Virus record (IMG/VR): IMGVR_UViG_3300046004_001116
Coordinates: 1 to 64,000 of that record
DNA length: 64,000 bases
DNA from: a virus
Direction: 5' to 3' (one strand)
The notes under the pieces were generated by a model. It was not told the DNA's origin, made no database searches, and saw only the letters and a list, made by a program, of their open reading frames with translations. Each line of letters begins with the position of its first letter. Positions within the stretch are counted from its first letter, which is position 1. Below are positions 7,509-46,170 of the stretch, piece by piece. A program made the position numbers and the translations under genes.

Positions 7509-7812
7509 TTGGAAAGAAACTGCCATTGGACACGAAATGGGTCTAGTGATAATTGAAGACAACAAGGTACAACATTCATTAGTGATAGTTCTTAAAGAAT
7601 ATGAATGGGCACCTAACCGTGAACCTTACATCGCGGACTTAGAGATTGTTGCTGCGGATAGCCCAACACTACATGTAGGAAACATTATTAAGTTGCCACT
7701 TCTTACTCATGAAGAAGAAGGTTTCTTAGTGTTTGCTCCGTATCCTAAACATCCAAACAATGAAATCCGAATGCATGCAAAACTTGAGTTTTATCAGTTA
7801 GTTGAGCCGTAA
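7501..7812 (+). CDS. Hypothetical protein
   Basis: ORF. Confidence 0.6.
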   Translation: MINWKETAIGHEMGLVIIEDNKVQHSLVIVLKEYEWAPNREPYIADLEIVAADSPTLHVGNIIKLPLLTHEEEGFLVFAPYPKHPNNEIRMHAKLEFYQLVEP

Positions 7813-7815
7813 AGT

Positions 7816-7880
7816 TTAACATAAATTTAACACTTTAAATTTGCTTGGTATGTAATTTTTGGTTAATTTTATACTATAAT
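7816..7880 (+). promoter_or_regulatory. Bacteroidota sigma-A type early promoter with tandem TTAACA boxes
   Basis: TTAACA 7816/7827, TTTG 7840, TAATTTTA 7864 (20-nt spacer). Confidence 0.7.
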
Positions 7881-7906
7881 TAAAAACAATATAAAACTTA
7901 TTCACT

Positions 7907-27637: not shown

Positions 27638-28315
27638 ATGTCAAAACTTAAAACATCAATAGTTTTATTTATAGCTGTACTTGTTGCTTCGGCCATGATG
27701 TCGGTTAACAAGAATAATCTTATAGTAGTAAAACACAAGTATTACAAATCAACATTTGATACTAACTTAAATTATCCAGTGAAAGTAGAATATTGGCTTA
27801 CTCGCAATATGCACTTATGTAATAAACATATTCCTCGTCCTGGAGATTTTAAAGAAGACCCACAAATTGGCAAATCCAATAACCTGGATATATCATATGT
27901 TAAAAGCGGTTACGATCGCGGTCATAACTTTCCAGCATACGATGGTTCTTGTGACCAAACTGGAATGTACGAATCATTCTATTATACAAACATGACACCA
28001 CAAGCACCTGGATTAAACAGAGGCGGTTGGAAATCACTTGAAGAGAACATAAGAAAAGAATCTGAGCTTAACGATAGTATATATGTAGCAACAGGTTCAA
28101 TCCAAGGAATCTCAACAAAAACTGTAGGTGGCAACGGTTGTCCTAAAGTAGCAATTCCAGCATCTTGTTGGAAAGCATATTGGGTAAAACGCACTGGTAA
28201 GAAAGTAGCTTATCTTTTTCCTAATTCTAAAGTTGACGTAAAAGACATTGATAAATACTTAATCAGTGTTAAACAACTCGAAAAAAGCGTTGGAAAACTA
28301 TTTCCAACCAATTAA
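27638..28315 (+). CDS. DNA/RNA non-specific endonuclease with N-terminal signal/TM segment
   Basis: YDRGHNFP, NMTPQ..LNRGGW..LEE; ATG 27638 preferred over upstream TTG. Confidence 0.85.
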   Translation: MSKLKTSIVLFIAVLVASAMMSVNKNNLIVVKHKYYKSTFDTNLNYPVKVEYWLTRNMHLCNKHIPRPGDFKEDPQIGKSNNLDISYVKSGYDRGHNFPAYDGSCDQTGMYESFYYTNMTPQAPGLNRGGWKSLEENIRKESELNDSIYVATGSIQGISTKTVGGNGCPKVAIPASCWKAYWVKRTGKKVAYLFPNSKVDVKDIDKYLISVKQLEKSVGKLFPTN

Positions 28316-28336
28316 TATAATAACTATAAACTTAAT

Positions 28337-28618
28337 ATGAAACATATTCATAACTTTACAGAATTTATTAATGAAGCTACATCTGCTTATACCGAAATGA
28401 TTTTGTCTAAAGACCAAGATTTCGATCAAGTTAAAAAGTTACTTATAACCGATAAGAAAGCAAATCATCTAAATTTTACTCATTGGTCTCATGGTCAACC
28501 TTTAGGTTCAATCCGAGGACATTTAATTACTATGTTCTTCAATAATCCAAAATCCGAAGTTTCCGATTTCATTCAAAGGAATGACATCAAAATAGCAAAT
28601 AAATCCTATTTCGAATAA
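28337..28618 (+). CDS. Putative internal head protein
   Basis: MKHIHNFTEFINEA. Confidence 0.65.
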   Translation: MKHIHNFTEFINEATSAYTEMILSKDQDFDQVKKLLITDKKANHLNFTHWSHGQPLGSIRGHLITMFFNNPKSEVSDFIQRNDIKIANKSYFE

Positions 28619-28635
28619 ATAACTATAAACTCAAT

Positions 28636-29061
28636 ATGAAACACGTACAACAATTTGATGAATTTATTAATGAAGCTGCAAATGCAATAGTTAAACCTAA
28701 TGCAAAACTAAAAAGTGGTACAGGGTTTCCATACGCTTCTTTTTACTTGTCAACTCAAGCATTAGACATAATGATAAATTTTGACGACCCAAAACATATT
28801 GCTGTTATTAAACTGCTAGCCGACCAAGAAAAAGAAATGAAAGACAACGGCTTTTTAAGTAAAAGTTCAATGGATAAAGCAAGAACAGCATATAAAAACG
28901 CACTTGGGACTTATGTAGTGCAGGCAAAGTACGACGGCCCGGATATAACTTTCCGTTTGTCTAGTACGCCAGACGCTAACTTAGATGACGGTAGTAAAAA
29001 GCAATGGTTACCTGGATCAGAGAGCAGCGGCGGTGGAATTACAATGGCAAAGTACATTTAA
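28636..29061 (+). CDS. Putative internal head protein
   Basis: MKHVQQFDEFINEA; 5' region duplicated from the previous gene. Confidence 0.65.
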   Translation: MKHVQQFDEFINEAANAIVKPNAKLKSGTGFPYASFYLSTQALDIMINFDDPKHIAVIKLLADQEKEMKDNGFLSKSSMDKARTAYKNALGTYVVQAKYDGPDITFRLSSTPDANLDDGSKKQWLPGSESSGGGITMAKYI

Positions 29062-29115
29062 AACTTTTCTATTAAAAACAATATTTGCTGGTATAAAAAA
29101 ACAAAATAAGTAATA

Positions 29116-29811
29116 ATGAACAAAACACAATTTACTAATCGTTGGTCAAATATGAATTTGTCCCAACAGGAGTTAGACCGCAAATGGCGTTTACAATTAG
29201 AAGCGCAAGAACAAGAACTTATGATGGCTGAACAAGCTGTTTATTTGGCAAGTATTAATCCTATGAATGCACTGCATGTTGGTGCTTTTGGCGGAGGAAC
29301 TTTAACACCTCCTGAACCACCTGCACCGTCTTCACCATTAACAGTTTTACGGTATGCTACTTCACAAGGTGAAGAAGTTGTGTGGCCTGAAGATTTTCCA
29401 TTAACTTTTACGTTAGATCCAACTTTACCTGATTTTTCTTATACTCTTGATGTATCCTATATCCCACCATCTCAAGTCCCAACTCCTGCTGCTTTAATAG
29501 GTGTTACAATTGGAAATACAGTTACAAGTATTGGTGACCTTGCTTTTACTAATTGTTTTAATTTGGCATCTGTTACATTTGCGCCAATTTCAACAGTTAC
29601 AAGTATTGGTTCTAACGCGTTTTCAACTTGCCCCTCATTAACATCTATTGAAATTCCAGATTCAGTTACAAGTGTGGGTGGTAATGCATTTGCTAGTTCA
29701 GGATTACAAACTGTAACTATATCTTCAGCAACCGCAATTGCTATTGGTATAACATCACCTACTGTTGGGGTTAACTTTTTTGGAGTGACTGTTGATACTA
29801 TTCTTCCTTAA
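29116..29811 (+). CDS. BspA-type LRR_5 protein with QQELDRKWR N-terminal module
   Basis: VTSIGxxAFxxC...IPDSVTSVGGNAF repeats. Confidence 0.75.
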   Translation: MNKTQFTNRWSNMNLSQQELDRKWRLQLEAQEQELMMAEQAVYLASINPMNALHVGAFGGGTLTPPEPPAPSSPLTVLRYATSQGEEVVWPEDFPLTFTLDPTLPDFSYTLDVSYIPPSQVPTPAALIGVTIGNTVTSIGDLAFTNCFNLASVTFAPISTVTSIGSNAFSTCPSLTSIEIPDSVTSVGGNAFASSGLQTVTISSATAIAIGITSPTVGVNFFGVTVDTILP

Positions 29812-29861
29812 TAACGTAAAAGTACATTTAAAACTTTTTTCAACTTTTTTCACTAAATGTA

Positions 29862-29890
29862 AAACTAAGTAAAAAGGCAAGTATATATAA
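29862..29890 (+). promoter_or_regulatory. RAACT-N17-TATATAA promoter driving leader 1
   Basis: Same geometry at 34546, 38315, 43745, 61728. Confidence 0.65.
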
Positions 29891-29919
29891 TAAACAAAAC
29901 AATTAATAAATCAAAAACA

Positions 29920-30021
29920 ATGAAATCTCAAGTAATAAATATGGTCCCTGCGTATATTGCCAATCAGCCGATTGAGCAAAAGGAATCTTATTCTAAATCT
30001 GGAGATATTATATTTGAGTAA
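29920..30021 (+). CDS. Leader peptide of tRNA operon 1 (MKSQVINMVPAYIANQPIEQKESYSKSGDIIFE)
   Basis: A-rich start; contains TCTGGAG (29998-30004) complementary to the terminator arm. Confidence 0.8.
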   Translation: MKSQVINMVPAYIANQPIEQKESYSKSGDIIFE

Positions 30022-30046
30022 ATACACAACTATAACCAACATATCT

Positions 30047-30079
30047 AAGCTCCAGAATTAATTTTCTGGAGCTTTTTTT
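30047..30079 (+). terminator. Attenuator terminator 1
   Basis: aagctccagaa-ttaatt-ttctggagcttttttt. Confidence 0.85.
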
Positions 30080-30091
30080 ATTGCGATTAAT

Positions 30092-30147
30092 TTAACAAAA
30101 CTTTAACATATAGAATTTGCTTGGTATGAAATTATTGGTTAATTTTG
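30092..30147 (+). promoter_or_regulatory. Bacteroidota sigma-A type promoter with TTAACA boxes
   Basis: TTTG 30116, TAATTTTG 30140. Confidence 0.75.
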
Positions 30148-30172
30148 CTCTATAATTAAAAACAACATTATT

Positions 30173-30325
30173 ATGGCAACAATTACAACATACAAGATTA
30201 AAGAAAAGTACAAATCACTTTTAGCTACATATGCTTGGACTAAACTTGATTTAAACGGATCTTATTCTAAAGAAGATTGGAATAAAGCTGGTTTTAAAGA
30301 TTCTGTCTTAGATATTAATTGTTAA
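30173..30325 (+). CDS. Small hypothetical protein (50 aa)
   Basis: ORF MATITTYKIKEKY... behind the promoter. Confidence 0.5.
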   Translation: MATITTYKIKEKYKSLLATYAWTKLDLNGSYSKEDWNKAGFKDSVLDINC

Positions 30326-30690
30326 TAACTTTATGAATAAAAGTTTGCATTAGTCAATTTAATTGGTTAATTTTAACTAACAATAAAAATTTAATTATCA
30401 TGTCTATACAAAATCGAAAGTTAATCAGAAGCATATACGGAATCCACGGTCTAATCAATATTTTAAGTGGGTTTGACGTAAACGGAAATAATTGTTAAAA
30501 TTTCATTTAGCTTCGGCTAAGTATTATTCGTGGTACCAGGCGGGCAGTAGGGGTTACCGAATTAAAACAAACAAGAATGGTGAAATATGGGCTGGCCAGG
30601 CAACATAAAGTAACAACGACGCTCAGCGGTATCAATTCAAAACCTCCTCGTGGTGATACTGGAAACTTGATTCGTCAAGGCTAATTTGAA

Positions 30691-30703
30691 GTTCATTGAC
30701 ATA
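30691..30703 (+). promoter_or_regulatory. boxA-like antitermination signal (second copy 34860-34872)
   Basis: gttcattgacata / attctttgacata just before the first tRNA of each operon. Confidence 0.55.
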
Positions 30704-30715
30704 GTGATAACATTT

Positions 30716-30790
30716 ACGAGATTAGCTCAGTTGGTTCAGAGCAACTCTTTTACACGGAGAAGGTCACAGGTTCGAATCCTGTATCTCGTA
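30716..30790 (+). tRNA. trnV: tRNA-Val(TAC)
   Basis: Cloverleaf, loop TTTACAC. Confidence 0.9.
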
Positions 30791-30993
30791 CTAATGAATT
30801 AAACGGTCTAAGGATTAGGACGCTGGCGTAAGGCACCGGCTGAAACGCCGACCATCGTTGGAGAGATTCTACTCTCTAATTCATAACACACTGCAGTGAT
30901 TGCCGGCCACACGCATCGGTTCTTAACGGGAAATCGTTCTCGTCGTTAGGTGAACAGACCGGACAAATTCCTTAGGTGGTGCTAGGGTCAACT

Positions 30994-31067
30994 GCTGCTA
31001 TAGACGAATTGGTTAAGTCGTCGCCCTTTCAAGGCGGAGGTTGCGGGTTCAAGTCCCGTTGGCAGTA
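30994..31067 (+). tRNA. trnE: tRNA-Glu(TTC)
   Basis: Cloverleaf, loop CTTTCAA. Confidence 0.9.
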
Positions 31068-31073
31068 CAACAT

Positions 31074-31148
31074 GAGCGCTGAAGCACAATCGGACGTGCA
31101 CCTGGCATACGGCCAGTAGGATATAGGTTCGAATCCTATCTTTGCTCC
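31074..31148 (+). tRNA. Atypical/pseudo tRNA, loop CATACGG (A33)
   Basis: D and T arms intact, weak acceptor, no U33. Confidence 0.5.
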
Positions 31149-31156
31149 AAATACTT

Positions 31157-31230
31157 TCTCCTGTCGTCTAGTCGGCTCAGGACGCTGCCCTTTCACGGCG
31201 GTAACGCGGGTTCGAATCCCGTCGGGAGAA
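31157..31230 (+). tRNA. trnE: tRNA-Glu(TTC)
   Basis: Cloverleaf, loop CTTTCAC. Confidence 0.9.
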
Positions 31231-31332
31231 CAACACTACCGAATGGTGTAATCTATGTGTTAAAAGAACAGCGCTGGCTGAGACCAGAGTTCCACCGTAA
31301 TTGTAGTAATCGGTGATTCGGTAAACAATATT

Positions 31333-31404
31333 GGTTTCGTAGCTCAGAGGCAGAGCGGCACCCTGTTAAGGTGAGGGTCGGGATTTCGATATTCCCCGAG
31401 ACCG
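31333..31404 (+). tRNA. trnN: tRNA-Asn(GTT)
   Basis: Cloverleaf, loop CTGTTAA. Confidence 0.88.
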
Positions 31405-31415
31405 CAATTAAAAAA

Positions 31416-31586
31416 TAGCTTTCAGCCAAAGGTGGCGGGCAATACTTTTACTCAGTTATGTATGGACTGTCTTAGACGTAAGGTGGAAAATCATAAAGGT
31501 TTAAATAGGATATGACTCTGATTGTCGACGAGATGAGAGTATCTGATAAGTATCGCTGGGTGGGTTCGATTCCCATTGTGAGCTCA
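31416..31586 (+). ncRNA. tRNA-like RNA with ~100-nt extended arm replacing the anticodon arm
   Basis: AGCTTTCA/TGTGAGCT stem, D-like arm, T arm gtgggTTCGATTcccat. Confidence 0.55.
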
Positions 31587-31590
31587 AGAT

Positions 31591-31664
31591 TCCTCAGTAG
31601 CTCAGTTGGTTAGAGCGTCGGACTGTTAATCCGTAGGTCCTAGGTTCGAGTCCTAGCTGGGGAG
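31591..31664 (+). tRNA. trnN: tRNA-Asn(GTT)
   Basis: Cloverleaf. Confidence 0.92.
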
Positions 31665-31822
31665 CAAAAGTTGATTACTTTAGGTTACAGGAATTACCAG
31701 AAACCTGTCGACATACTCTTGGGCGTAAGGCAAGAGCAGATTTTGAACCAGGTTTAATCTGTAATGTAAACCTACTCGTATTTAACAATTATACGTTAAG
31801 TCTAATCAACTAAATTGTAACT

Positions 31823-31908
31823 GGCCTTGTAGCTCAATTGGATTGCATTACGCTTAGAGCCACCGACTTTTAATCGGTAGGTTGGGGGTTCGAGTCCCTC
31901 CAGGGTCA
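31823..31908 (+). tRNA. trnK: tRNA-Lys(TTT) with enlarged D loop
   Basis: Loop CTTTTAA; ~12 extra nt in the D loop. Confidence 0.8.
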
Positions 31909-32006
31909 CAAAGGAATAATTACTCTGGCGGTGGTGCGGGTAAGCGCCGGGAAGTAACGCCCGGTTGGCAAAGTAAATTATTCAGAGGTAAGGAAAAGAC
32001 TAAACT

Positions 32007-32079
32007 GGGGCTATGGTATAGATGGCTAACACACTTGCCTTGCACGCAGGAATCCCGAGTTCGAGGCTCGGTAGCTCCA
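32007..32079 (+). tRNA. trnA: tRNA-Ala(TGC)
   Basis: G3-U70, loop CTTGCAC. Confidence 0.92.
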
Positions 32080-32336
32080 CGGGAGTTTTTGAAACGGCCT
32101 ACTCTTTGAGGCACGTGATATTTGTACTTTAACAAAATTCACAGTATGGCAAGAGGGTTTTTGGAAGCGGCTTTAAGGTATAAGCAATGTATTTGACCAG
32201 AACAAAATCATAGTATAACTATCTTCTGTCACGTTAGCAGACCGGGTATGGCTACGCACAGTTTGGAAGTAATATGTGTATTAAACAAAACTTTCACCGC
32301 GGCGAAACGTTTCCCAAAACAAAGTAGTCGCAAGAA

Positions 32337-32421
32337 GGGAGTACGCCGGAGTTGGAGAGCCGGAGCGGTCTGTAACACCGTTGGCATTACGCCTGAGTAG
32401 GTTCGAATCCTACTACTTTCA
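32337..32421 (+). tRNA. trnY: tRNA-Tyr(GTA)
   Basis: Long variable arm, loop CTGTAAC. Confidence 0.9.
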
Positions 32422-32424
32422 CAA

Positions 32425-32503
32425 AAATTGAAGCGGAGGTAAGAGTTACATCAACTTTTTATTGGAAAAAACAAACAAACACTCTTCCTAATATTCTCAA
32501 TTT
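32425..32503 (+). ncRNA. Minimal Y-RNA-like gene
   Basis: GAAGCGG...GAGTTACATC / CTC...TAATATTCTC stem shared with the RNAs upstream of Ro60. Confidence 0.7.
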
Positions 32504-32506
32504 CAT

Positions 32507-32577
32507 TGTCCGATGGTGTAACGGTAACACTACTGTTTTTGGTGCAGTCATTCAAGGTTCGAATCCTTGTCGGATAA
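32507..32577 (+). tRNA. trnQ: tRNA-Gln(TTG)
   Basis: Cloverleaf. Confidence 0.9.
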
Positions 32578-32586
32578 CTATTATAT

Positions 32587-32659
32587 TGGAATATGGTATA
32601 ATGGCTCATTACACGTGGTTTTGGTCCACGCAATCAAGGTTCGATTCCTTGTATTCCAA
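32587..32659 (+). tRNA. trnQ: tRNA-Gln(TTG)
   Basis: Cloverleaf. Confidence 0.9.
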
Positions 32660-32664
32660 CAATT

Positions 32665-32739
32665 CGCGTAGCGATCCACAGAGAGAGGTTACCCGCCTTG
32701 GACGCGGGGTTATTGCAGGTTCGAGTCCTGTCTACGCGA
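32665..32739 (+). tRNA. trnP: tRNA-Pro(TGG), divergent D arm
   Basis: Loop CTTGGAC; perfect acceptor and T arm. Confidence 0.8.
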
Positions 32740-32750
32740 CAAATTTTTAA

Positions 32751-32823
32751 CGGGGTGTAGATCAGTTGGTAGATCGCGTGCTTTGGGAGCATGAGGCCGC
32801 AGGTTCGAGTCCTGTCACCCCGA
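32751..32823 (+). tRNA. trnP: tRNA-Pro(TGG)
   Basis: Cloverleaf. Confidence 0.92.
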
Positions 32824-32889
32824 CGAGACGAGACTGTTACTAATTCATAGGGGCCCATTCACGCAAGTGTCTGCATAGAATTAGAATTT

Positions 32890-32963
32890 AGGTGGTTAGC
32901 TCAACTGGTTAGAGCACTCGCCTGATACGCGAGAGGTTATGAGTTCGACTCTCATATCACCTA
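32890..32963 (+). tRNA. trnI: tRNA-Ile(GAT)
   Basis: Cloverleaf. Confidence 0.92.
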
Positions 32964-33031
32964 CTAAAAAATATAAAAGTCAAATGAAACAAATTTTAGT
33001 CAACTCCTCATAGGTTAGCATTGCTAAACTT

Positions 33032-33262
33032 ATGACTCAGAAATTGAGAATTTGGAGAGTAGTTCCCGTTCGTAACGGCGTTCAGGCTCCCACTTTTTTT
33101 GTAGAAACTACAGAAGAAGGACGCGACAAGGCAGAAGTATCTGCTTTAAAACAAGCAAGACAAAGGTCAGGCTTGAGTAAATTTGATTGTTGGAATTTCA
33201 ATCTTATCAAAACAGAATTAAGGTTAGATAAGTTTGGAAGATATGTAAAGTATCACCAATAA
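33032..33262 (+). CDS. Small hypothetical protein within the tRNA array
   Basis: 76-aa ORF filling an inter-tRNA gap. Confidence 0.6.
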   Translation: MTQKLRIWRVVPVRNGVQAPTFFVETTEEGRDKAEVSALKQARQRSGLSKFDCWNFNLIKTELRLDKFGRYVKYHQ

Positions 33263-33308
33263 TAAACTGGGCAGTTTTCGGTCTGCGTAATAATTAAAAC
33301 CGAAATTT

Positions 33309-33380
33309 GGTGATGTAGCTCAGCGGCAGAGCACCCGGCTCATATCCGGAAGGTCGAGGTCTCGGAATCCTCCATCGCTA
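33309..33380 (+). tRNA. trnM: tRNA-Met(CAT), atypical T loop
   Basis: Loop CTCATAT; T loop CTCGGAA. Confidence 0.75.
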
Positions 33381-33384
33381 CAAA

Positions 33385-33443
33385 TGTATACTTTAATATA
33401 CAATATGGTCTAAAACGGCTATAATTGTATATTAAAGTATACA
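33385..33443. repeat. 20-bp perfect inverted repeat
   Basis: tgtatactttaatatacaat / attgtatattaaagtataca. Confidence 0.85.
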
Positions 33444-33452
33444 AACAATAAA

Positions 33453-33594
33453 TTCCAGAAGCGGCAAAGAGAGTTACTTCGTCTGTTAAACGAGAGGTCG
33501 TAGGTTCGAGTCCTACTGCGTGTACCTTGATGGGAAACGTATAGCTCAGTTGGTTAGAGCGCTAAAAATCTCTCTCTTAATTATTCTCTGGCAA
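33453..33594 (+). ncRNA. YrlA-like Y RNA with permuted tRNA-like domain
   Basis: Shared terminal stem enclosing GTT hairpin, T arm, loop-closed acceptor, then D arm. Confidence 0.8.
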
Positions 33595-33597
33595 TTT

Positions 33598-33671
33598 GAC
33601 TCGGTAGCTCAGTTGGTAGTAGCACCTCACTTTTAATGAGGGGGTCGTGGGTTCGAGTCCCACCCGGGTCA
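33598..33671 (+). tRNA. trnK: tRNA-Lys(TTT)
   Basis: Cloverleaf. Confidence 0.92.
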
Positions 33672-33685
33672 CAAATATTAATCAT

Positions 33686-33763
33686 GGGAGCAGCTGGGAT
33701 AGCGCGGGTGGTGTCGAGCCACCTTTCACCGGTAGCTTGAGGTTCGAGTCCTCTTTGTTCCCC
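33686..33763 (+). tRNA. Atypical tRNA-like gene, 8-bp acceptor, loop TGTCGAG (G33)
   Basis: T arm tgaggTTCGAGTcctct; reduced D arm. Confidence 0.5.
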
Positions 33764-33777
33764 TAAATGTTATCAGT

Positions 33778-34029
33778 ATGACACGAGAACAGAAAATAGC
33801 AAAAAGGAAACTTCGTGCTTCTATCCACAGAGAAAAAAGAAACGAAAAGTACTTTAAAAAAATACGAGCGGCAAATGATATAGGCGGGTGGGTTCCACTT
33901 TATGCCGTTGATAGCCGTGGATACGTTTCAGGTTCATGGCCTGACTCAAGTAGCCCTACAGGATATTCACAAAGATGTTCTTATGATGCCTGGGGAACTT
34001 GTCAAAGTCCATGCAACGGAGACTGTTAA
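33778..34029 (+). CDS. Small basic/Cys-containing hypothetical protein
   Basis: 83-aa ORF ending CQSPCNGDC. Confidence 0.6.
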   Translation: MTREQKIAKRKLRASIHREKRNEKYFKKIRAANDIGGWVPLYAVDSRGYVSGSWPDSSSPTGYSQRCSYDAWGTCQSPCNGDC

Positions 34030-34033
34030 AAAT

Positions 34034-34092
34034 TGGGAGGTCGCATAGTTGGTTAGTGCTCATCTTCGGTGGTTCGAGTCCACCCCTCCCCA
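34034..34092 (+). ncRNA. tRNA-like RNA lacking the anticodon arm
   Basis: Acceptor, D and T arms intact; 8-nt linker tcatcttc. Confidence 0.7.
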
Positions 34093-34281
34093 CTAAGATT
34101 TAATCTGCTAAACGCAAAATGGTATGTTGCCGCCGATAACTACGGAAACACAAGCAAGGAAGGAGGTCACTTGCCGCATACAGGAAACACAGATCCGTTC
34201 ATTTTGTTAGTAAGGTATCGGGTACATTCGGTTGTACTTGGGTATTCACCAATCTGTGCCGGTGACAGATTAAATTTTTAT

Positions 34282-34355
34282 GGCCATGTAACTCAGTTGG
34301 TTAGAGTGCCCGCCTCATAAGCGGAGAGTCCTTGGTTCGAGTCCAAGCTTGGCCA
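34282..34355 (+). tRNA. tRNA-CAT (elongator Met or Ile2)
   Basis: Loop CTCATAA. Confidence 0.85.
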
Positions 34356-34545
34356 CATGAAAACGCAAGTAACGGTATTATTCCGAAGCGATGATAAGAA
34401 TTACAATTGGTCATCAGTATTATCTAAAGAAGTAGGATATGAATTTGTTAAACTACAGAAAATAGAGAACACGGATAATCCAAGATGGCCAAAATGGTCT
34501 TTTATCATTACTTACAAAAAAAGTAAATAAAAATGCAAAAGTGTA

Positions 34546-34574
34546 AAACTAACCGTTTTCACGTGTATATATAA
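34546..34574 (+). promoter_or_regulatory. RAACT-N17-TATATAA promoter driving leader 2
   Basis: Matches the 29862 element. Confidence 0.65.
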
Positions 34575-34596
34575 TAAACAACAAATAAATTAAACA

Positions 34597-34704
34597 ATGC
34601 AAACACAATCATTACATACAAGATCGTTTACGTCAAGCTGGAACTTATGTTTCGGACTAGGGCGCGATTGTGACATAGATCTGGAGGATCTGACTACTAT
34701 CTAA
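34597..34704 (+). CDS. Leader peptide of tRNA operon 2 (MQTQSLHTRSFTSSWNLCFGLGRDCDIDLEDLTTI)
   Basis: A-rich start; TCTGGAG at 34680-34686. Confidence 0.8.
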   Translation: MQTQSLHTRSFTSSWNLCFGLGRDCDIDLEDLTTI

Positions 34705-34729
34705 TGTAATTTGCATACAAGATATTTTC

Positions 34730-34762
34730 AAAGCTCCAGAATTAATTTTCTGGAGCTTTTTT
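34730..34762 (+). terminator. Attenuator terminator 2 (identical hairpin to terminator 1)
   Basis: aaagctccagaa-ttaatt-ttctggagctttttt. Confidence 0.85.
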
Positions 34763-34774
34763 ATTGCGATTAAT

Positions 34775-34830
34775 TTAACAAAACTTTAACATATTAAATT
34801 TGCTTTACATCTTTTAATTGGTTAATTTTA
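34775..34830 (+). promoter_or_regulatory. Bacteroidota sigma-A type promoter with TTAACA boxes
   Basis: TTTG 34799, TAATTTTA 34823. Confidence 0.7.
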
Positions 34831-34887
34831 TACTGTAATTAAAAACAACCATTAATTGCATTCTTTGACATACTGAAAACTAAAATT

Positions 34888-34960
34888 GGTGCTGTGGCAG
34901 ATCAGGTGATTGCGGCGGACTGAAAATCCGTAGGAGTGGGTTCGATACCCACCGGCACCA
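34888..34960 (+). tRNA. trnF: tRNA-Phe(GAA)
   Basis: Cloverleaf. Confidence 0.9.
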
Positions 34961-35075
34961 CACAAACTTATTTAAGGTTCGACCCTCACCCATTTTGCGC
35001 TCAATTCGCATTTACTTTGGAAGACTGGTTCTAGAGGGAGCTACCGACTGATAAGTGGCCGCACACGCGGCAAAT

Positions 35076-35150
35076 GCCTGAGTGGGTAAACTGGTAAAGC
35101 CGCTTGACTTAGGATCAAGAGTTCTGTGGGTTCGACTCCCACCTCGGGTA
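35076..35150 (+). tRNA. trnL: tRNA-Leu(TAG), short variable arm
   Basis: Loop CTTAGGA; A73. Confidence 0.85.
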
Positions 35151-35234
35151 CAAATTATTTAGTTCCATGCATAAGCTCAAACAGCTCCCTGAAATTACAT
35201 GGTTTAAAGGAGCTTAAACTAAATAATAAATTTT

Positions 35235-35311
35235 GGTGCCGCAGCATATCGGCGTATGATGCTCGCCTGTCACGTGGGAGATTGCGGGTTCGAATCCCGT
35301 CGGTACCGCCA
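35235..35311 (+). tRNA. trnD: tRNA-Asp(GTC), CCA encoded
   Basis: Cloverleaf, weak D arm. Confidence 0.88.
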
Positions 35312-35351
35312 TCTGGTTAAGATTCCAGAGAACAATCAAAAATCTACAAAC

Positions 35352-35425
35352 ACCCTCATGGTCCAGTTGGAGTGGATGTCGCCCTGTCACGGCGAAGATC
35401 GCGGGTTCGAGTCCCGCTGGGGGTG
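35352..35425 (+). tRNA. trnD: tRNA-Asp(GTC)
   Basis: Cloverleaf. Confidence 0.9.
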
Positions 35426-35531
35426 CAAAAAACTGGGGTAGAAAAATCTTAGGACGGCAATCCGTAGATGTAATACGATGGTTACTGCACAAAGAGAAAA
35501 GTAATTTGCCGATGAAATTCACTTAGCAGTT

Positions 35532-35619
35532 TTCCTTTTGATGAAATTGGCAAACATGGCTCGCGCGAAGCGAGTGCTCAGGGTTTACTCTGATAAAGGT
35601 TCGAGTCCTTTAAGGGAAA
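35532..35619 (+). tRNA. Atypical class II tRNA, loop CGCGAAG (CGA anticodon, G33, Leu-like body)
   Basis: Full cloverleaf with long variable arm, A73. Confidence 0.6.
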
Positions 35620-35644
35620 CAAATTTCAGGAGTAATTAACCTGA

Positions 35645-35781
35645 AGCTGAATGGTTCGAAACATTCGATTGGTCATGGTGTATTGGGCACGGTAGAACGG
35701 AGTAATCGTACGCAGAGCGTTAGGCTCTCAACGGCGGTGAAAGGGAAAACAGGTTAAAGGTTCGAATCCTTAGGATCAGCT
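35645..35781 (+). ncRNA. tRNA-like RNA with two T-loop hairpins
   Basis: AGCTGA/TCAGCT closure; gttcgaa motifs at ~35654 and ~35760; D-like arm. Confidence 0.45.
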
Positions 35782-35852
35782 TGCGTTAAAGTGTAAAGGT
35801 TGCATGGGACTCTCATAAGGTCTACGGGGTGGTTCGAGTCCACGCTACGCTA
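35782..35852 (+). tRNA. Degenerate tRNA-CAT
   Basis: Loop CTCATAA, mismatched acceptor stem. Confidence 0.5.
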
Positions 35853-35939
35853 CAAAATTCTAAGTGTGTCTTGGTACGCTCTGACAACCGTCAACGACAA
35901 GGTCTCGGTAGGCAAAACGCGTTTGATCCTACCCATTCT

Positions 35940-36013
35940 GCAGTAGTAGCTCAGTTGGTAGAGCGCTGCCTTGCCAAGGCAGAGGTTCGCGGGTTCGAAT
36001 CCCGTCTACTGCT
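35940..36013 (+). tRNA. trnG: tRNA-Gly(GCC)
   Basis: Cloverleaf. Confidence 0.92.
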
Positions 36014-36020
36014 CAAATAT

Positions 36021-36094
36021 GCGGGTATGGTGTTTAACGGTTAGCACGTGAGCCTTCCAAGTTTGAAGTTTCGGTTCGAATCCGAATATCCGCT
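36021..36094 (+). tRNA. trnG: tRNA-Gly(TCC)
   Basis: Cloverleaf. Confidence 0.9.
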
Positions 36095-36099
36095 CAACT

Positions 36100-36173
36100 G
36101 GTCTTGTAGCTCAACTGGATAGAGCATTGGTTTTCTAAACCAACGGTTATGGGTTCGATTCCCGTCAAGATCA
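36100..36173 (+). tRNA. trnR: tRNA-Arg(TCT)
   Basis: Cloverleaf. Confidence 0.92.
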
Positions 36174-36180
36174 CAAACAT

Positions 36181-36251
36181 ACGCCTATGGTGCAACGGTA
36201 GCATGACGGTCTCCAAAACCGTTGATAAAGGTTCGAATCCTTTTGGGCGTG
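36181..36251 (+). tRNA. trnW: tRNA-Trp(CCA)
   Basis: Cloverleaf. Confidence 0.92.
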
Positions 36252-36260
36252 CAAATATAA

Positions 36261-36347
36261 GGAGAGGTGCCAGAGTGGTCGATTGGACCGGTCTTGAAAA
36301 CCGGAGAGCGTGAAAGCGCTCCGTGGGTTCGAATCCCACCCTCTCTT
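36261..36347 (+). tRNA. trnS: tRNA-Ser(TGA)
   Basis: Class II cloverleaf. Confidence 0.92.
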
Positions 36348-36350
36348 CAA

Positions 36351-36498
36351 AATTAGAAGCGGTACATTGAGATACTTCAATATCCAAAACTGCCATTTGT
36401 TGGTTCGAGTCCAACCTGAGGTGTTAATAGCACCTCGGTGGTGAAATGGTAAACACAGCAGTCCCAAAACAAGACGCTCATGTAAACATTCTCTAATT
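36351..36498 (+). ncRNA. Second YrlA-like Y RNA with permuted tRNA-like domain
   Basis: TTAGAAGCGG-TACATTGAG / CTCATGTA-AACATTCTCTAA stem; T arm, loop-closed acceptor, D arm. Confidence 0.8.
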
Positions 36499-36503
36499 GA
36501 ATT

Positions 36504-36577
36504 GCTGGCGACGCATGAATGGTGGTGCACCGGATTTGTAACCCGGACTAGAGTCGGTTCGATCCCGACCGTCAGCT
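36504..36577 (+). tRNA. trnT: tRNA-Thr(TGT)
   Basis: Cloverleaf. Confidence 0.85.
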
Positions 36578-36583
36578 CAAAAT

Positions 36584-36654
36584 GGCCCTATGACCGAGCG
36601 GTTAGGTGCAGGTCTGCAAAATCTGTTAGGTTGGTTCGACTCCAACTGGTGCCT
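36584..36654 (+). tRNA. trnC: tRNA-Cys(GCA)
   Basis: Cloverleaf, U73. Confidence 0.9.
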
Positions 36655-36657
36655 CGA

Positions 36658-36852
36658 GAATAATCAGAGGACTCATCGCTGGAAACAGAGGAAGTTCGCG
36701 ACAACTAAACCTAACATGGGAGATGTAAAAATCGTTCGTACCACGGAAGTTGCAAGTTAAACAGTTTGAGGGTGTCGGTTTCCCTATGAGAACGGGTTAA
36801 TGCAAAGTCAAATGATGGGATAAAACAGAAACGCGGCTACGCTCAATTATTC
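36658..36852 (+). ncRNA. rnpB: Minimal RNase P RNA
   Basis: GAGGAAGTTCGCG (CR-I) and AACAGAAACGCGGCTA (CR-V) forming P4; P1 GAATAAT/ATTATTC. Confidence 0.8.
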
Positions 36853-36857
36853 AAATT

Positions 36858-36939
36858 GCCCAGGTGGAGAAATTGGTAGACTCGCCAGCCTAAGGAGCTG
36901 GTGCCGCAAGGCGTGAGGGTTCGAGTCCCTCCTTGGGTA
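36858..36939 (+). tRNA. trnL: tRNA-Leu(AAG)
   Basis: Class II cloverleaf, loop CTAAGGA. Confidence 0.88.
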
Positions 36940-36951
36940 CAAAATTAAAAT

Positions 36952-37041
36952 GGGCCGATTGGTGTAACTGGGAATGAATACCAGCTTGGGTTAACACGAA
37001 CCTGTAGGTTCGGCTGAGAGTTCGAATCTCTCATCGGTCCC
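36952..37041 (+). ncRNA. Atypical tRNA-like gene with 8-bp acceptor and no clear anticodon
   Basis: GGGCCGAT/ATCGGTCC; T arm gagagTTCGAATctctc. Confidence 0.55.
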
Positions 37042-37157
37042 GGTATCTCCCAAGGGAGAAAACTCTGGTTGGTGGTCTGACCTTATAGACCGCAATAAGA
37101 CTGTCAAGGTAGGACGTCAGTTATAGAGAGGTGAGCCATACCTATTCCTCTCAACAT

Positions 37158-37232
37158 GGTGATTGTAGCTCAGTTGGTTAGAGCGCTGGTTTGTGGTACC
37201 AGAGGTCGCGGGTTCGACCCCCGTCATTCACC
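37158..37232 (+). tRNA. trnH: tRNA-His(GTG)
   Basis: G-1/C73, loop TTGTGGT. Confidence 0.92.
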
Positions 37233-37247
37233 CTAAAAAGAATACTT

Positions 37248-37397
37248 ATGAAAGGCATTGAATTAATTCCAATTGGGCCTGTTTCTGAAGAAGCAAAGGC
37301 TAGGTTAAAGAAACGATCTGAAAGGGATAAAGCAAGATTAGACCAAATGGTTAAAGACGCTAAAGAAGGCAAGTATGATCATATAATAAACAAATAG
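37248..37397 (+). CDS. Small hypothetical protein
   Basis: ATG 37248, MKGIELIPIG... Confidence 0.5.
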   Translation: MKGIELIPIGPVSEEAKARLKKRSERDKARLDQMVKDAKEGKYDHIINK

Positions 37398-37402
37398 AAA
37401 GC

Positions 37403-37624
37403 ATGAAAGCGGGAGCTAAAACAACAGACAAAGATTTTAATAACTTAATTACATACTTGGAAAGATTCAAAGGTGCTAATATTACAATCACTGTTGATAA
37501 AAATCCTTCGCCTGAAAAGATTGCTTATATAAAAGAAAGAATAAAGATAAGTGAGCAACGTGCTCAAAACGGCCGGGTGGTGGAACTGGTAGACACGCTG
37601 GGTTTAAGCCCCAGTGGGCAGTAA
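37403..37624 (+). CDS. Small hypothetical protein whose 3' end overlaps tRNA-Leu
   Basis: ORF reads into the tRNA at 37571. Confidence 0.45.
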   Translation: MKAGAKTTDKDFNNLITYLERFKGANITITVDKNPSPEKIAYIKERIKISEQRAQNGRVVELVDTLGLSPSGQ

Positions 37625-37656
37625 TGCCCGTGCGGGTTCGAATCCCGCTCTGGTCA
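37571..37656 (+). tRNA. trnL: tRNA-Leu(TAA)
   Basis: Class II cloverleaf. Confidence 0.92.
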
Positions 37657-37660
37657 CAAA

Positions 37661-37746
37661 GGAGAGGTAAGCATAGTGGTACTGCAGCGGATTGCTAATC
37701 CGTTCGGCGTTTATTCGTCGCGTGGGTTCGATCCCCACTCTCTCCG
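37661..37746 (+). tRNA. trnS: tRNA-Ser(GCT)
   Basis: Class II cloverleaf. Confidence 0.9.
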
Positions 37747-37765
37747 CAATATATAATAAAACAAT

Positions 37766-37837
37766 GGCCTGTTAGTTTAACGGATAGAACTCTGGTTTAC
37801 GGCATCAGCGATGGGGGTTCGAGTCCCTCACGGGTCA
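37766..37837 (+). tRNA. trnR: tRNA-Arg(ACG)
   Basis: Loop TTACGGC. Confidence 0.88.
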
Positions 37838-37861
37838 CTAATCAAATAAAAAACAAATGTC

Positions 37862-38314
37862 ATGGTATTTAGAAAGCTCGCAGATAGGCAGGAAGTTGAC
37901 TTATTACCATACGCACATGATTTCCTAACGGAACATCCAGAGCATAAACTCTACGTGGGTACGGATAGTCAAAACATCGGAAAAACTACAGTTTATGCAA
38001 CAGTTATTGTGTTTCATAATAACAACGGTGGTGGTCACGTTTTATATTCTAAGGTAACAGTACCTAGAATCGCGGACAGATGGACCAGATTGTGGAAAGA
38101 AGTAGAAATGTCAGTTCAAGCAGCTGACCTTTTAAAAGAAGGAGATTTTCATCCGGTAGATTTTATTGACTTGGATTTAAACCCAGACCCAAGATACAAA
38201 TCGAATATGGTCTTAAGATCAGCTGTTGGTTATGTTGAGAGTTTTGGTTACAAAGCAAGAGTAAAACCGAATGCGACTATTGCATCTTGTGTTGCAGATA
38301 GTATCTTCCGTTAA
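37862..38314 (+). CDS. RNase H-like YkuK (DUF458) family protein
   Basis: YVGTDSQ, RLWKEV..S, KPNA.IAS.VAD. Confidence 0.8.
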   Translation: MVFRKLADRQEVDLLPYAHDFLTEHPEHKLYVGTDSQNIGKTTVYATVIVFHNNNGGGHVLYSKVTVPRIADRWTRLWKEVEMSVQAADLLKEGDFHPVDFIDLDLNPDPRYKSNMVLRSAVGYVESFGYKARVKPNATIASCVADSIFR

Positions 38315-38407
38315 GAACTATTATATAAGAAGTGAATATATAATCTATAATACTTTGGGGTGTAAAAGCCCCAAATATTTTTACTAACTAAAATAAAACA
38401 AAAAAAC

Positions 38408-38764
38408 ATGAAGTAGGTACAAACAAAATTCTCCGAAACAAAATTAATCGTTGTCACTAGATCTGATATTTCTCCGGGCTATCAAGTAGTCCAATCAACA
38501 CACTCAATCGCTGATTTCTCATATCAGCATCCTGAAGCTTTCCAACAGTGGAAGAATGATTCAAACTCAATCATTTGCCTTTCAGTGCCTTCAGAAGAGA
38601 AACTTCTCAAACTATTTAATAAATTCGAAAACCGTATACCGGCTACAGCGTTCTATGAACCAGACGTATCCGAATGGACTTCCGTGTGCTTACTTGGCAC
38701 CCCAGAGATTCGTAAAGCACTTTCGCATTTACCGCTATCATTAAAAAACTCCGATGTATTATGA
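38408..38764 (+). CDS. Peptidyl-tRNA hydrolase Pth2-like protein with in-frame TAG at codon 3 (not in ORF track)
   Basis: ATG AAG TAG then open frame ...KLIVVTRSDISPGYQVVQSTHS...IICLSV...FYEPD...TSVCL...LSHLPL. Confidence 0.7.
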
Positions 38765-39186
38765 AAGGAATCTTAAAAGTTAGAAGCTTTGATGCGCTTA
38801 AAAAATTAAGTACAAAAAGAGCTTACGGTAAACACAAAAGATTACATGAAAGAATGAGACATATTCATACGTCTATTCTATTTCTTGAAGAACACAAATT
38901 ACTTACTGTGGATATGCTATGGGATATGTTATGTGTTTACATTAGCTATCAAAGAGAAGCAGGTAAACTTTATTATGTTTACGCTTACGCTAGACCAGAT
39001 AGTTGGTATAAGACAAACAATCGAATATTTACCGAATTTACACCAGAACATGTTGATTCGTATATTAATCATATACTTACAAATGCTTATAGCCATGTAA
39101 TGAATCTGCCGTATGAACTACATAAAAAATACAGAGACATTATCATCGGGAGAGAAAAAGAACTAAAATTAAAAAACAACAATTAA
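38761..39186 (+). CDS. Hypothetical protein
   Basis: ATGA overlap with the Pth2-like gene. Confidence 0.6.
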   Translation: MKGILKVRSFDALKKLSTKRAYGKHKRLHERMRHIHTSILFLEEHKLLTVDMLWDMLCVYISYQREAGKLYYVYAYARPDSWYKTNNRIFTEFTPEHVDSYINHILTNAYSHVMNLPYELHKKYRDIIIGREKELKLKNNN

Positions 39187-42540: not shown

Positions 42541-42586
42541 GCATATATAAGTACTTAACCTAATGATATATAAAATAAACAAAATT

Positions 42587-46078: not shown

Positions 46079-46151
46079 TGCGGGGTAGAGCAGTTGGTAG
46101 CTCAGTGGGCTCATAACCCAAAGGTCGCAGGTTCGAGTCCTGCCCCCGCTA
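46079..46151 (+). tRNA. trnfM: Initiator tRNA-fMet(CAT)
   Basis: 1-72 mismatch, three G-C pairs in the anticodon stem. Confidence 0.92.
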
Positions 46152-46170
46152 CTAACTTAAATTATTAAAA

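What the first reader, a model, noticed from the sequence alone, without database searches (positions are those of the whole stretch)
29920..30079. Leader 1 samples both synonymous codons of most of its amino acids
Seen: AAA/AAG, CAA/CAG, GTA/GTC, ATA/ATT, CCT/CCG, GCG/GCC and GAG/GAA all occur in 21 codons, with many G/C-ending codons in an AT-rich genome. The antiterminator can extend: TCTGGAG-ATAT (29998-30008) with ATAT-ctaag-CTCCAGA (30041-30056). Inference: the leader surveys individual isoacceptors rather than amino-acid pools, which favours tRNA-damage sensing over simple starvation sensing.
Basis: partly seen in the sequence, partly recalled or inferred. Interest (0 to 1): 0.82.

Follow-up and report, generated by a model that had tools for sequence, protein, structure and literature searches.

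The report
Codon choice in phage tRNA-operon leader
A tiny gene that seems to let a lake phage gauge its tRNA supply does spell most amino acids two ways, but this mix looks like relaxed codon choice plus an RNA hairpin, not a probe of each tRNA.

Summary
The codon pairs are really there: 7 amino acids use two synonymous codons within codons 2-22 of the 33-codon ORF 29920-30021. This is not more than chance. For the whole ORF it is 7 of 10 repeated amino acids against 6.0 expected from gene codon usage (P=0.38), and 6.8 expected from intergenic base composition (P=0.61). Three alleles from lake metagenomes differ at synonymous sites, including highlighted ones, about as often as neighbouring genes do (3 of 19 against 29%). 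Three of the rare G/C-ending codons have their third base paired in a conserved mid-ORF hairpin, which shows one compensatory change.

The underlying object is well supported. Leader 1 belongs to a leader-peptide attenuator in front of a phage tRNA operon. Its amino acids match the tRNAs downstream. An antiterminator strand sits just before the stop codon. The same design recurs in leader 2 and in 13 leader clusters of related phages. Across that clade, Leu/Ser/Arg/Ile codons match the codon box of the downstream tRNAs (59 of 71 against 36 expected). So codon-level matching exists, but not through leader 1's synonymous pairs. Sequence cannot separate damage sensing from supply sensing.

This scan has noted such attenuators before on other DNA. 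Four searches found no paper on them.

The parts
29858..29897 (+). Promoter-like element ahead of leader 1. The same two boxes precede leader 2.
   Evidence: The 16-nt box at 29882-29897 recurs exactly at 34566-34581. Alleles keep it. Promoter activity is inferred, not shown.
29920..30021 (+). Leader 1 ORF: 33 codons plus stop.
   Evidence: In total 25 of 32 codons encode amino acids of operon-1 tRNAs (binomial P=0.004). That is 20 of 21 in codons 2-22 and 5 of 11 in the tail. The length is kept at 33 codons in three alleles, with 18 substitutions and no indel, while indels lie just beyond the stop.
29923..29985 (+). Control region, codons 2-22. A ribosome stalled here leaves 29998-30004 free.
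   Evidence: The composition changes at codon 22/23. Folds with masked ribosome positions were computed. The ribosome footprint size used is recalled, not computed.
29925..29932 (+). Region 1. It can pair with 29999-30006 and so acts as a candidate anti-antiterminator.
   Evidence: RNAalifold consensus of the three alleles. All seven pairs are invariant, so there is no covariation evidence.
29957..29979 (+). Mid-ORF hairpin over codons 13-20, a candidate pause or timing hairpin.
   Evidence: Seen in the minimum-energy fold and the consensus fold. The pair 29963-29972 changes on both sides in L077 and stays paired. All alleles keep the hairpin at -8.6 to -9.5 kcal/mol. The third bases of codons 14, 17 and 19 are paired in it.
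29998..30004 (+). Region 2, the antiterminator strand. It copies part of the terminator's 3' arm.
   Evidence: Duplex with the terminator 5' arm: -11.9 kcal/mol, z -4.5 against shuffles. It is in the nascent minimum-energy fold. The same 7 nt occur in leader 2 in a different reading frame.
30047..30079 (+). Intrinsic terminator: 11-bp stem with a 6-nt loop (30047-30074), then a T-run.
   Evidence: An identical hairpin lies at 34730-34759. Only 3 strict terminators lie on the + strand in 28000-39000.
30086..30166 (+). Repeated promoter-like element between the terminator and the tRNAs.
   Evidence: Copies lie around 7812-7903, at 30314-30375 and at 34769-34849. Related contigs hold up to 20 matches each, nearly all on one strand. 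Promoter function is inferred. If it is a promoter, part of tRNA transcription bypasses the attenuator.
30716..34356 (+). tRNA operon 1: Val, Glu, Asn, Ile, Lys, Ala, Tyr, Gln, Pro, Met.
   Evidence: ARAGORN and Rfam.
34597..34704 (+). Leader 2 ORF: 35 codons plus stop.
   Evidence: In total 28 of 34 codons encode amino acids of operon-2 tRNAs (P=0.0006). Its region 2 ends 15 nt before the stop.
34730..34764 (+). Terminator of leader 2.
34888..37838 (+). tRNA operon 2: Phe, Leu, Asp, Ser, Gly, Arg, Trp, Thr, Cys, His.
   Evidence: The next strict terminator is at 38354.

Best explanation
Leader 1 is the translated sensor of a trp/his-style transcription attenuator placed in front of a phage tRNA operon.

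Mechanism. A ribosome that moves slowly through codons 2-22 leaves 29998-30004 free to pair with 30050-30056. These codons are almost all for the ten amino acids whose tRNAs lie downstream. The pairing stops the terminator from forming, so transcription from the upstream promoter runs on towards the tRNA genes. A ribosome that reaches the tail or the stop codon covers that strand, and the terminator forms.

The two-synonym pattern is not a designed survey of isoacceptors. It comes from (a) codon choice without the bias of the phage's long genes, close to what base composition gives, and (b) an RNA hairpin inside the ORF (29957-29979) that fixes the third bases of three rare G/C-ending codons.

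Status of the steps. Shown here: the sequence features, their statistics and their conservation. Inferred: translation of the ORF, regulated read-through, and the roles of the hairpin and the two promoter-like elements.
For: THE ATTENUATOR
- Amino-acid match: leader 1 has 25 of 32 and leader 2 has 28 of 34. Ten hand-picked modules give a Fisher combined P of 1e-24. Own-block enrichment is 1.98 against 1.00 for leaders set against other blocks.
- In 29 of 31 distinct modules, the ORF end pairs with its own terminator's 5' arm better than shuffled sequence does (p<=0.05). The mean is -13.7 kcal/mol, against -6.6 for 732 cross pairs.
- The antiterminator is in the nascent minimum-energy fold at every stall position tested. 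The terminator alone forms when the RNA is masked up to a ribosome at the stop.
- Alleles keep the ORF length. In codons 2-22 all five replacements between the window and L077 stay within the operon-1 amino acids. In leader 2 of L079 the Trp codon is lost at codon 15 and gained at codon 18.
- The leader peptide is 21 of 33 identical between the window and L077, against 585 of 705 for five neighbouring proteins. This argues against a functional peptide.

THE CODON PATTERN IS NOT DESIGNED
- Whole ORF: 7 of 10 against 6.0 expected (P=0.38).
- Composition null: 7 against 6.8 (P=0.61). Rare codons: 7 against 5.2 (P=0.24).
- Clade: 52 of 66 against 51.1 (P=0.45).
- Synonymous changes occur at codons 11, 16, 22 and 30 among three alleles. 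The rate is 3 of 19 against 0.289 in neighbouring genes (P=0.16).
- The hairpin has a compensatory pair.
- The three rare codons with a paired third base (14, 17, 19) are invariant. The four rare codons without one (9, 11, 16, 33) all vary. My own Fisher arithmetic gives 1/35.
Against: - Leader 1 is depleted in the Watson-Crick cognates of its operon's anticodons: 6 of 24 against 12.2 (P=0.004), and against 10.9 under the composition null (P=0.023). The depletion persists in L077: 7 of 23 against 11.1 (P=0.039). Relaxed bias does not explain this.
- Against gene usage, rare codons are enriched in leader 1, leader 2 and several relatives. One leader cluster has 12 against 2.9 expected. Codon choice fell on the less likely side of its gene-usage expectation in 29 of 30 distinct leaders. 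Tuning for sensitivity therefore stays possible.
- In four lake runs from four studies the ORF is unchanged, while 2 substitutions and 1 insertion lie in the 120 nt upstream.
- Only three distinct leader-1 alleles were available, so the synonymous-rate test has little power.
- Leader 2 is more conserved at synonymous sites than its neighbours (2 of 31, P=0.002), but its whole module is 95.6% identical.
- Mechanism caveats. Region 2 lies 14 nt before the stop, further upstream than in relatives, where it spans -13 to +1. A promoter-like element sits between the terminator and the tRNAs.
- No RNA or bench data exist.
Confidence: 0.6

Rival explanations
1. Sensitivity tuning. The leader prefers rare or wobble-read codons because slowly read, little-used codons make the ribosome-polymerase race respond more steeply to the level of the cognate tRNA. 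The mix of synonyms is a side effect of mixing sensitive codons with ordinary ones.
For: Rare codons are 7 against 2.6 expected in leader 1 and 9 against 3.6 in leader 2. Enrichment is strong in one relative cluster, 12 against 2.9. Watson-Crick cognates are depleted: 6 against 12.2 and 7 against 11.1 in L077. Passages of PMC1183508 state that high sensitivity needs a particular choice among synonymous codons and that low codon usage amplifies sensitivity.
Against: Rare-codon enrichment vanishes against a composition null (P=0.24 and 0.35). Watson-Crick depletion is not general: summed over the 11 modules it is 83 observed against about 92 expected (my own sum). Unpaired rare codons change freely among alleles.
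Confidence: 0.2
2. Each synonym probes a different, mostly host, isoacceptor, so the leader detects loss of single tRNA species, as after anticodon-nuclease attack, rather than amino-acid shortage.
For: Box-level matching of Leu/Ser/Arg/Ile codons to downstream tRNAs across the clade. Leader 2 covers 15 of 17 anticodons. Lys, Ile, Ala and Pro keep two or more codons in all three alleles when the tail is counted. A Ro60-type protein with a TROVE domain lies 3 kb away, which fits an RNA-quality context.
Against: The synonym pairs are not above chance. They are not conserved for Gln, Glu and Val. Operon 1 has one anticodon per amino acid. The host and its tRNA set are unknown. No RtcB was found in the 85.9-kb record, which is only about 30% complete.
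Confidence: 0.13
3. There is no attenuator. The hairpin at 30047-30079 simply ends the upstream transcription unit, the repeated element after it starts the tRNA operon, and the small ORF is incidental or encodes a small protein.
For: A promoter-like repeat follows each terminator in this lineage. A 33-codon open frame is not rare in AT-rich DNA.
Against: The amino-acid match to the downstream tRNAs holds here and in relatives. Complementarity of the ORF end to its own terminator holds in 29 of 31 modules with unrelated sequences. In more distant relatives the first tRNA starts 21-43 nt after the terminator in most modules, leaving no room for a promoter. Substitutions preserve amino-acid content, and the peptide is poorly conserved.
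Confidence: 0.07

Closest known systems
Multivalent leader-peptide attenuators of enterobacterial amino-acid operons (thr and ilvGMEDA leaders; also trp, his, leu, phe). Named from memory.
   Same: A short translated ORF rich in the relevant codons. An intrinsic terminator. An alternative antiterminator helix that shares the terminator's 5' arm. A sensing strand placed so that a ribosome near the stop masks it. A further upstream pairing partner.
   Different: The controlled genes are tRNAs, not biosynthetic enzymes. One leader lists ten amino acids, mostly once to three times each, rather than runs of one to three amino acids. It lies in a phage. No Rfam leader family matches.
Codon-choice rules for attenuator leaders: Elf and Ehrenberg 2005, PMC1183508 (passages read). 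The rare leucine codons of the leu leader are recalled, not read.
   Same: Little-used codons, and a particular synonym, are expected to raise sensitivity. Leaders here are enriched in codons rare in phage genes.
   Different: That theory concerns charging of isoacceptors under amino-acid limitation. Here the supply of the tRNA itself is presumably sensed, and the enrichment is not separable from relaxed codon bias.
Stress-induced tRNA operon of Anabaena under the repressor TrcR: PMC10272220 (abstract read) and PMC8421152 (search listing only).
   Same: An extra tRNA gene array is switched on when translation is impaired.
   Different: Control there is by a ribbon-helix-helix repressor protein, not by a leader ORF and terminator. 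It is cellular, not phage.
T-box riboswitches
   Same: A cis-acting RNA ahead of translation-related genes chooses between terminator and antiterminator according to tRNA status.
   Different: T-boxes bind uncharged tRNA directly and need no ORF. No T-box match appeared at E<=1 in 29800-38400.

Membership tests
Ribosome-mediated (leader-peptide) transcription attenuator | A short ORF lies just upstream of the controlled genes on the same strand. | tested here: met
   The ORF 29920-30021 is kept at 33 codons in three alleles despite 18 substitutions. Translation itself was not tested.
Ribosome-mediated (leader-peptide) transcription attenuator | The ORF is enriched in codons tied to the product of the controlled genes. 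| tested here: met
   25 of 32 codons (P=0.004). All 10 operon-1 amino acids are present. The clade-wide combined P is 1e-24 on 10 hand-picked modules.
Ribosome-mediated (leader-peptide) transcription attenuator | An intrinsic terminator lies between the ORF and the controlled genes. | tested here: met
   An 11-bp stem plus T-run at 30047-30079.
Ribosome-mediated (leader-peptide) transcription attenuator | An alternative antiterminator helix uses the terminator's 5' arm. | tested here: met
   29998-30004 pairs with 30050-30056 at z -4.5. It is in the nascent minimum-energy fold. 29 of 31 modules pass against shuffles.
Ribosome-mediated (leader-peptide) transcription attenuator | The sensing strand is placed so that a ribosome at the end of the ORF masks it and an earlier stall does not. 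| tested here: inconclusive
   The strand ends 14 nt before the stop. With a recalled footprint of about 15 nt on either side of the P site, 4 of 7 nt would be covered. Relatives place it at -13 to +1.
Ribosome-mediated (leader-peptide) transcription attenuator | Read-through rises when decoding of the regulatory codons slows. | not testable with these tools
   No RNA data could be used.
Ribosome-mediated (leader-peptide) transcription attenuator | The controlled genes make the amino acid being sensed (the classical family). | tested here: not met
   The downstream genes are tRNAs. This is the respect in which it is a new variant.
Rfam leader families and T-box | A match to a curated covariance model. 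| tested here: not met
   No leader or T-box family at gathering score in the window, or at E<=1 in 29800-38400.

The most novel reading that the evidence does not exclude
Leader 1 deliberately avoids the codons that its own operon's tRNAs read by Watson-Crick pairing. It uses wobble-read or host-only codons instead. The attenuator would then gauge the weakest link of decoding for each amino acid, and would report loss of single host isoacceptors (for instance after anticodon-nuclease defence). The phage would answer by making U34/G34 tRNAs that can cover the whole box.
Probability: 0.15. Interest if true: 0.85.

Novelty: new variant of a known kind. Interest (0 to 1): 0.5.

Why it matters
If the attenuator works as read, a phage measures by translation whether the cell can decode a set of codons, and it makes the matching tRNAs only when needed. 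That is trp-operon logic applied to tRNA genes. I found no paper describing this.

For this finding the useful result is a limit. The amino-acid content, and for six-fold and Ile codons the codon box, are under selection. The third-base 'two of each' pattern is not. It should not be used as evidence for damage sensing.

The allele series gives ready-made natural variants for a reporter test:
- amino-acid changes that preserve the leader's content;
- a Trp codon that moved;
- a compensatory hairpin change.

Tried and rejected
SEARCHES FOR RELATIVES THAT LED NOWHERE
- The exact terminator had 0 hits in viral contigs.
- Two flanking proteins had no relatives.
- Cultured-phage records matched only single tRNAs.
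- Five contigs sharing the repeated promoter-like element hold no tRNA genes. They are fragments, so this says nothing about their phages.
- Relatives cannot be drawn for a virus record.

LIMITS OF THE MODULE COUNT
- Among the 45 loci found through the Ro60-type protein, my strict criteria listed 49 terminator-block pairs. Of these, 11 had no ORF, and several of those 'terminators' lie inside tRNAs.
- tRNA-rich relatives with about 50% Ro identity (L056, L059, L069) showed no matching module. The design is therefore not universal, or my criteria miss it there.
- L055 is a weak case (P=0.22).

OTHER DEAD ENDS
- I could not tell whether a CAT-anticodon tRNA of operon 1 reads the Ile ATA codon. 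Similarity to Ile tRNAs was 0.71-0.73, which does not decide it.
- RtcB was not found in the record, which is 30% complete.
- In one search the contigs break at 30076. A 'skips 149' joint (29897 to 30047) in two runs probably comes from another module sharing the promoter box and terminator. I draw nothing from it, nor from parts without cover.
- I rejected GC3 as a signal.
- No structure prediction, complex prediction, protein database search or supplement was used. Supplements were not opened.

Full report
WHAT THE WINDOW IS. The window is the first 64 kb of an 85.9-kb uncultured virus record with 35.5% G+C and about 30% estimated completeness. Fourteen DNA runs labelled lake water or freshwater metagenome hold at least half of the sampled words. 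All long ORFs run on the + strand. From 30716 to 37838 lies an array of more than 32 tRNA genes.

On the + strand of 28000-39000 only three strict intrinsic terminators occur, at 30047, 34731 and 38354. The first two are identical hairpins. Each follows a small ORF and the same promoter-like box, and each is followed by a repeated promoter-like element. They split the array in two. Operon 1 carries tRNAs for Val, Glu, Asn, Ile, Lys, Ala, Tyr, Gln, Pro and Met. Operon 2 carries tRNAs for Phe, Leu, Asp, Ser, Gly, Arg, Trp, Thr, Cys and His.

THE OBSERVATION. Leader 1 is 29920-30021, 33 codons.

I compared this with codons drawn for the same peptide from the usage of the record's long ORFs.
- Whole ORF: 7 of 10 repeated amino acids use two or more codons, against 6.04 expected (P=0.38).
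- Codons 2-22 only, a stretch chosen after looking: 7 of 8 against 4.14 expected (P=0.034).
- G/C-ending codons: 8 against 6.5 expected (P=0.30).
- Rare codons (relative use under 0.17): 7 against 2.6 expected (P=0.009). Leader 2 has 9 against 3.6 (P=0.005).

I then used a second null in which synonyms follow the intergenic base composition. Intergenic G+C is 31%, against 23% at the third positions of genes.
- Rare codons: 7 against 5.2 (P=0.24).
- G/C endings: 8 against 9.0.
- Amino acids with two codons: 7 against 6.8 (P=0.61). For codons 2-22: 7 against 4.9 (P=0.10).

Over 13 leader clusters of this phage group, 52 of 66 repeated amino acids use two or more codons. Gene usage predicts 44.7 (P=0.018) and composition predicts 51.1 (P=0.45). 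So leaders lack the codon bias of long genes, but they do not sample synonyms beyond that.

THE HELIX. The 7-nt strand 29998-30004 pairs with the terminator's 5' arm, 30050-30056. The helix is in the minimum-energy fold of the RNA made before the 3' arm exists, at every ribosome stall position I masked (codons 8-22). The terminator alone forms when the RNA is masked up to a ribosome at the stop. A different register has 0.67-0.76.

IS IT AN ATTENUATOR? Of the 32 codons after the start, 25 encode operon-1 amino acids: 20 of 21 in codons 2-22 and 5 of 11 in the tail. For leader 2 the count is 28 of 34.

Through the Ro60-type protein at 40890-42512 I fetched 45 related viral loci. Many of them show tRNA blocks that each follow a small ORF and a strict terminator.
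- Ten hand-picked modules give a Fisher combined P of 1e-24. Leaders match their own block 1.98-fold and other blocks 1.00-fold.
- In 29 of 31 distinct modules, the end of the ORF pairs with its own terminator's 5' arm better than shuffled sequence does. The mean is -13.7 kcal/mol, against -6.6 for 732 cross pairs between unrelated modules.
- In most of those relatives the first tRNA starts 21-43 nt after the terminator.
- Counter-cases: 11 of 49 listed terminator-block pairs had no ORF. Three tRNA-rich relatives showed no module. One module is weak.

ALLELES. One metagenome scan for the strand-terminator pattern gave nine loci. It could only find loci that keep that pattern, so its hits say nothing about how well the helix is conserved. 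The more diverged leader-1 allele of L077 and L081 lay on loci fetched through their leader-2 match. The loci hold three leader-1 alleles: the window's, equal to L076; L073; and L077, equal to L081. They hold four leader-2 alleles. In four lake runs from four studies the leader-1 ORF is unchanged, while two substitutions and one insertion lie upstream.

L073 differs from the window at three codons. One is a Val to Ile change. Two are synonymous changes that remove the rare Ala and Gln codons.

L077 differs at 18 of 99 nucleotides without any indel.
- All five replacements in codons 2-22 stay within the operon-1 amino acids.
- There are synonymous changes at codons 11, 22 and 30.
- The two-codon property falls from 7 of 8 in the window to 5 of 7 in L073 and 4 of 6 in L077.
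- Synonymous differences are 3 of 19 conserved codons, against 163 of 564 in five neighbouring genes (P=0.16).
- The leader-1 module is as diverged as the neighbouring coding DNA: 84.5% identity against 83.5%.

In leader 2 of L079 the only Trp codon is lost at codon 15 and a new one appears at codon 18. This points to selection on content, not on the peptide.

THE HAIRPIN. A hairpin at 29957-29979 spans codons 13-20. In the three-allele consensus fold, one of its eight pairs (29963 with 29972) changed on both sides in L077 and stayed paired. That double change is the Ile/Asn swap at codons 15 and 18. All alleles keep the hairpin, and leader 2 has a counterpart that all its alleles keep.

The third bases of the rare codons 14, 17 and 19 are paired in this hairpin and never vary. 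The rare codons 9, 11, 16 and 33 are not so paired, and each varies in some allele. By my own arithmetic, Fisher's test gives 1/35. So part of the G/C-ending codon set is explained by RNA structure.

The consensus fold also pairs 29925-29932 with 29999-30006, a candidate anti-antiterminator. All of those pairs are invariant.

WHAT REMAINS OF THE INTERPRETATION. Codon-level matching is real in the clade. Of 95 Leu, Ser, Arg and Ile codons in the 13 clusters, 83 lie in a box read by a tRNA of the block downstream, against 65.5 expected from gene usage and 60.3 from composition. In the informative modules the count is 59 of 71 against 36.3. None of 5000 simulations reached either value.

For leader 1 this test is nearly silent, because operon 1 has one anticodon per amino acid. 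One oddity remains. Only 6 of 24 codons are Watson-Crick cognates of the operon's anticodons, against 12.2 expected (P=0.004). Under composition it is 10.9 expected (P=0.023), and in L077 it is 7 of 23 against 11.1 (P=0.039). It is not general: summed over the 11 modules it is 83 observed against about 92 expected (my own sum). I tested many statistics, so I hold this as unexplained rather than as a finding.

Passages of PMC1183508 say that attenuator sensitivity depends on which synonym is used and rises for little-used codons. That is the nearest known rule, and it is a live rival.

CAVEATS ON THE MECHANISM HERE. Region 2 ends 14 nt before the stop. With a recalled ribosome footprint of about 15 nt on either side of the P site, a terminating ribosome would cover 4 of its 7 nt. 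In this lineage a promoter-like repeat lies between the terminator and the tRNAs, so part of tRNA transcription may bypass the switch. Nothing here is experimental.

NOVELTY. No Rfam leader or T-box family matches. Four full-text searches found no account of leader-peptide control of phage tRNA genes. The nearest in print is the stress-induced tRNA operon of Anabaena under the repressor TrcR (abstract read). Supplements were not opened.

VERDICT. The inference drawn from it is unsupported for leader 1. The idea of codon-level matching holds for the clade at the level of codon boxes. The underlying attenuator is a well-supported new variant of a known kind.

Noticed in passing
window 30629-30691: A weak match to an HDV-like ribozyme family (33.1 bits against a gathering score of 44) lies 25 nt upstream of the first tRNA of operon 1.
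   Followed up: no
window 33455-33594 and 40890-42512: A weak Y-RNA-like (YrlA) match (34.3 bits against 69) lies inside the tRNA array. A 540-aa protein with a TROVE domain, of Ro60 type, lies 3 kb after the array. It has 45 relatives in viral contigs, many beside tRNA arrays.
   Followed up: partly
window 36659-36851: A weak match to archaeal RNase P RNA (26.4 bits against 84) lies between two tRNAs.
   Followed up: no
window around 7812-7903, 30086-30166, 30314-30375, 34769-34849: A repeat of about 80 nt looks like a promoter. Five related viral contigs hold up to 20 matches each, nearly all on one strand.
   Followed up: partly
window 30173-30690: Two small ORFs (50 and 32 aa), a second copy of the repeat and a G+C-richer stretch lie between leader 1's terminator and the first tRNA. 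In allele L077 this whole stretch is absent and the tRNA follows about 120 nt after the terminator. In L073 only the first ORF is absent.
   Followed up: partly
window 37862-38314: A 150-aa protein of the RNaseH_like family PF04308 (E 1.9e-24) sits between the last tRNA of operon 2 and the terminator at 38354, so it is probably co-transcribed with the tRNAs.
   Followed up: no
L079 2387-2494 (leader 2 allele): The single Trp codon moves from codon 15 to codon 18. An Asn to Asp change lies beside it, and the mid-ORF hairpin is kept in a shifted register.
   Followed up: partly
window 33309-33381, 34282-34356, 46079-46152: There are three tRNAs with anticodon CAT. The one at 46079 is 96% identical to a relative's CAT tRNA. 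The one at 34282 resembles Ile tRNAs (0.71-0.73) and might read ATA if modified.
   Followed up: partly
window 42567-42582: The box that precedes both leaders recurs with one mismatch just ahead of a homing-endonuclease-like gene.
   Followed up: no
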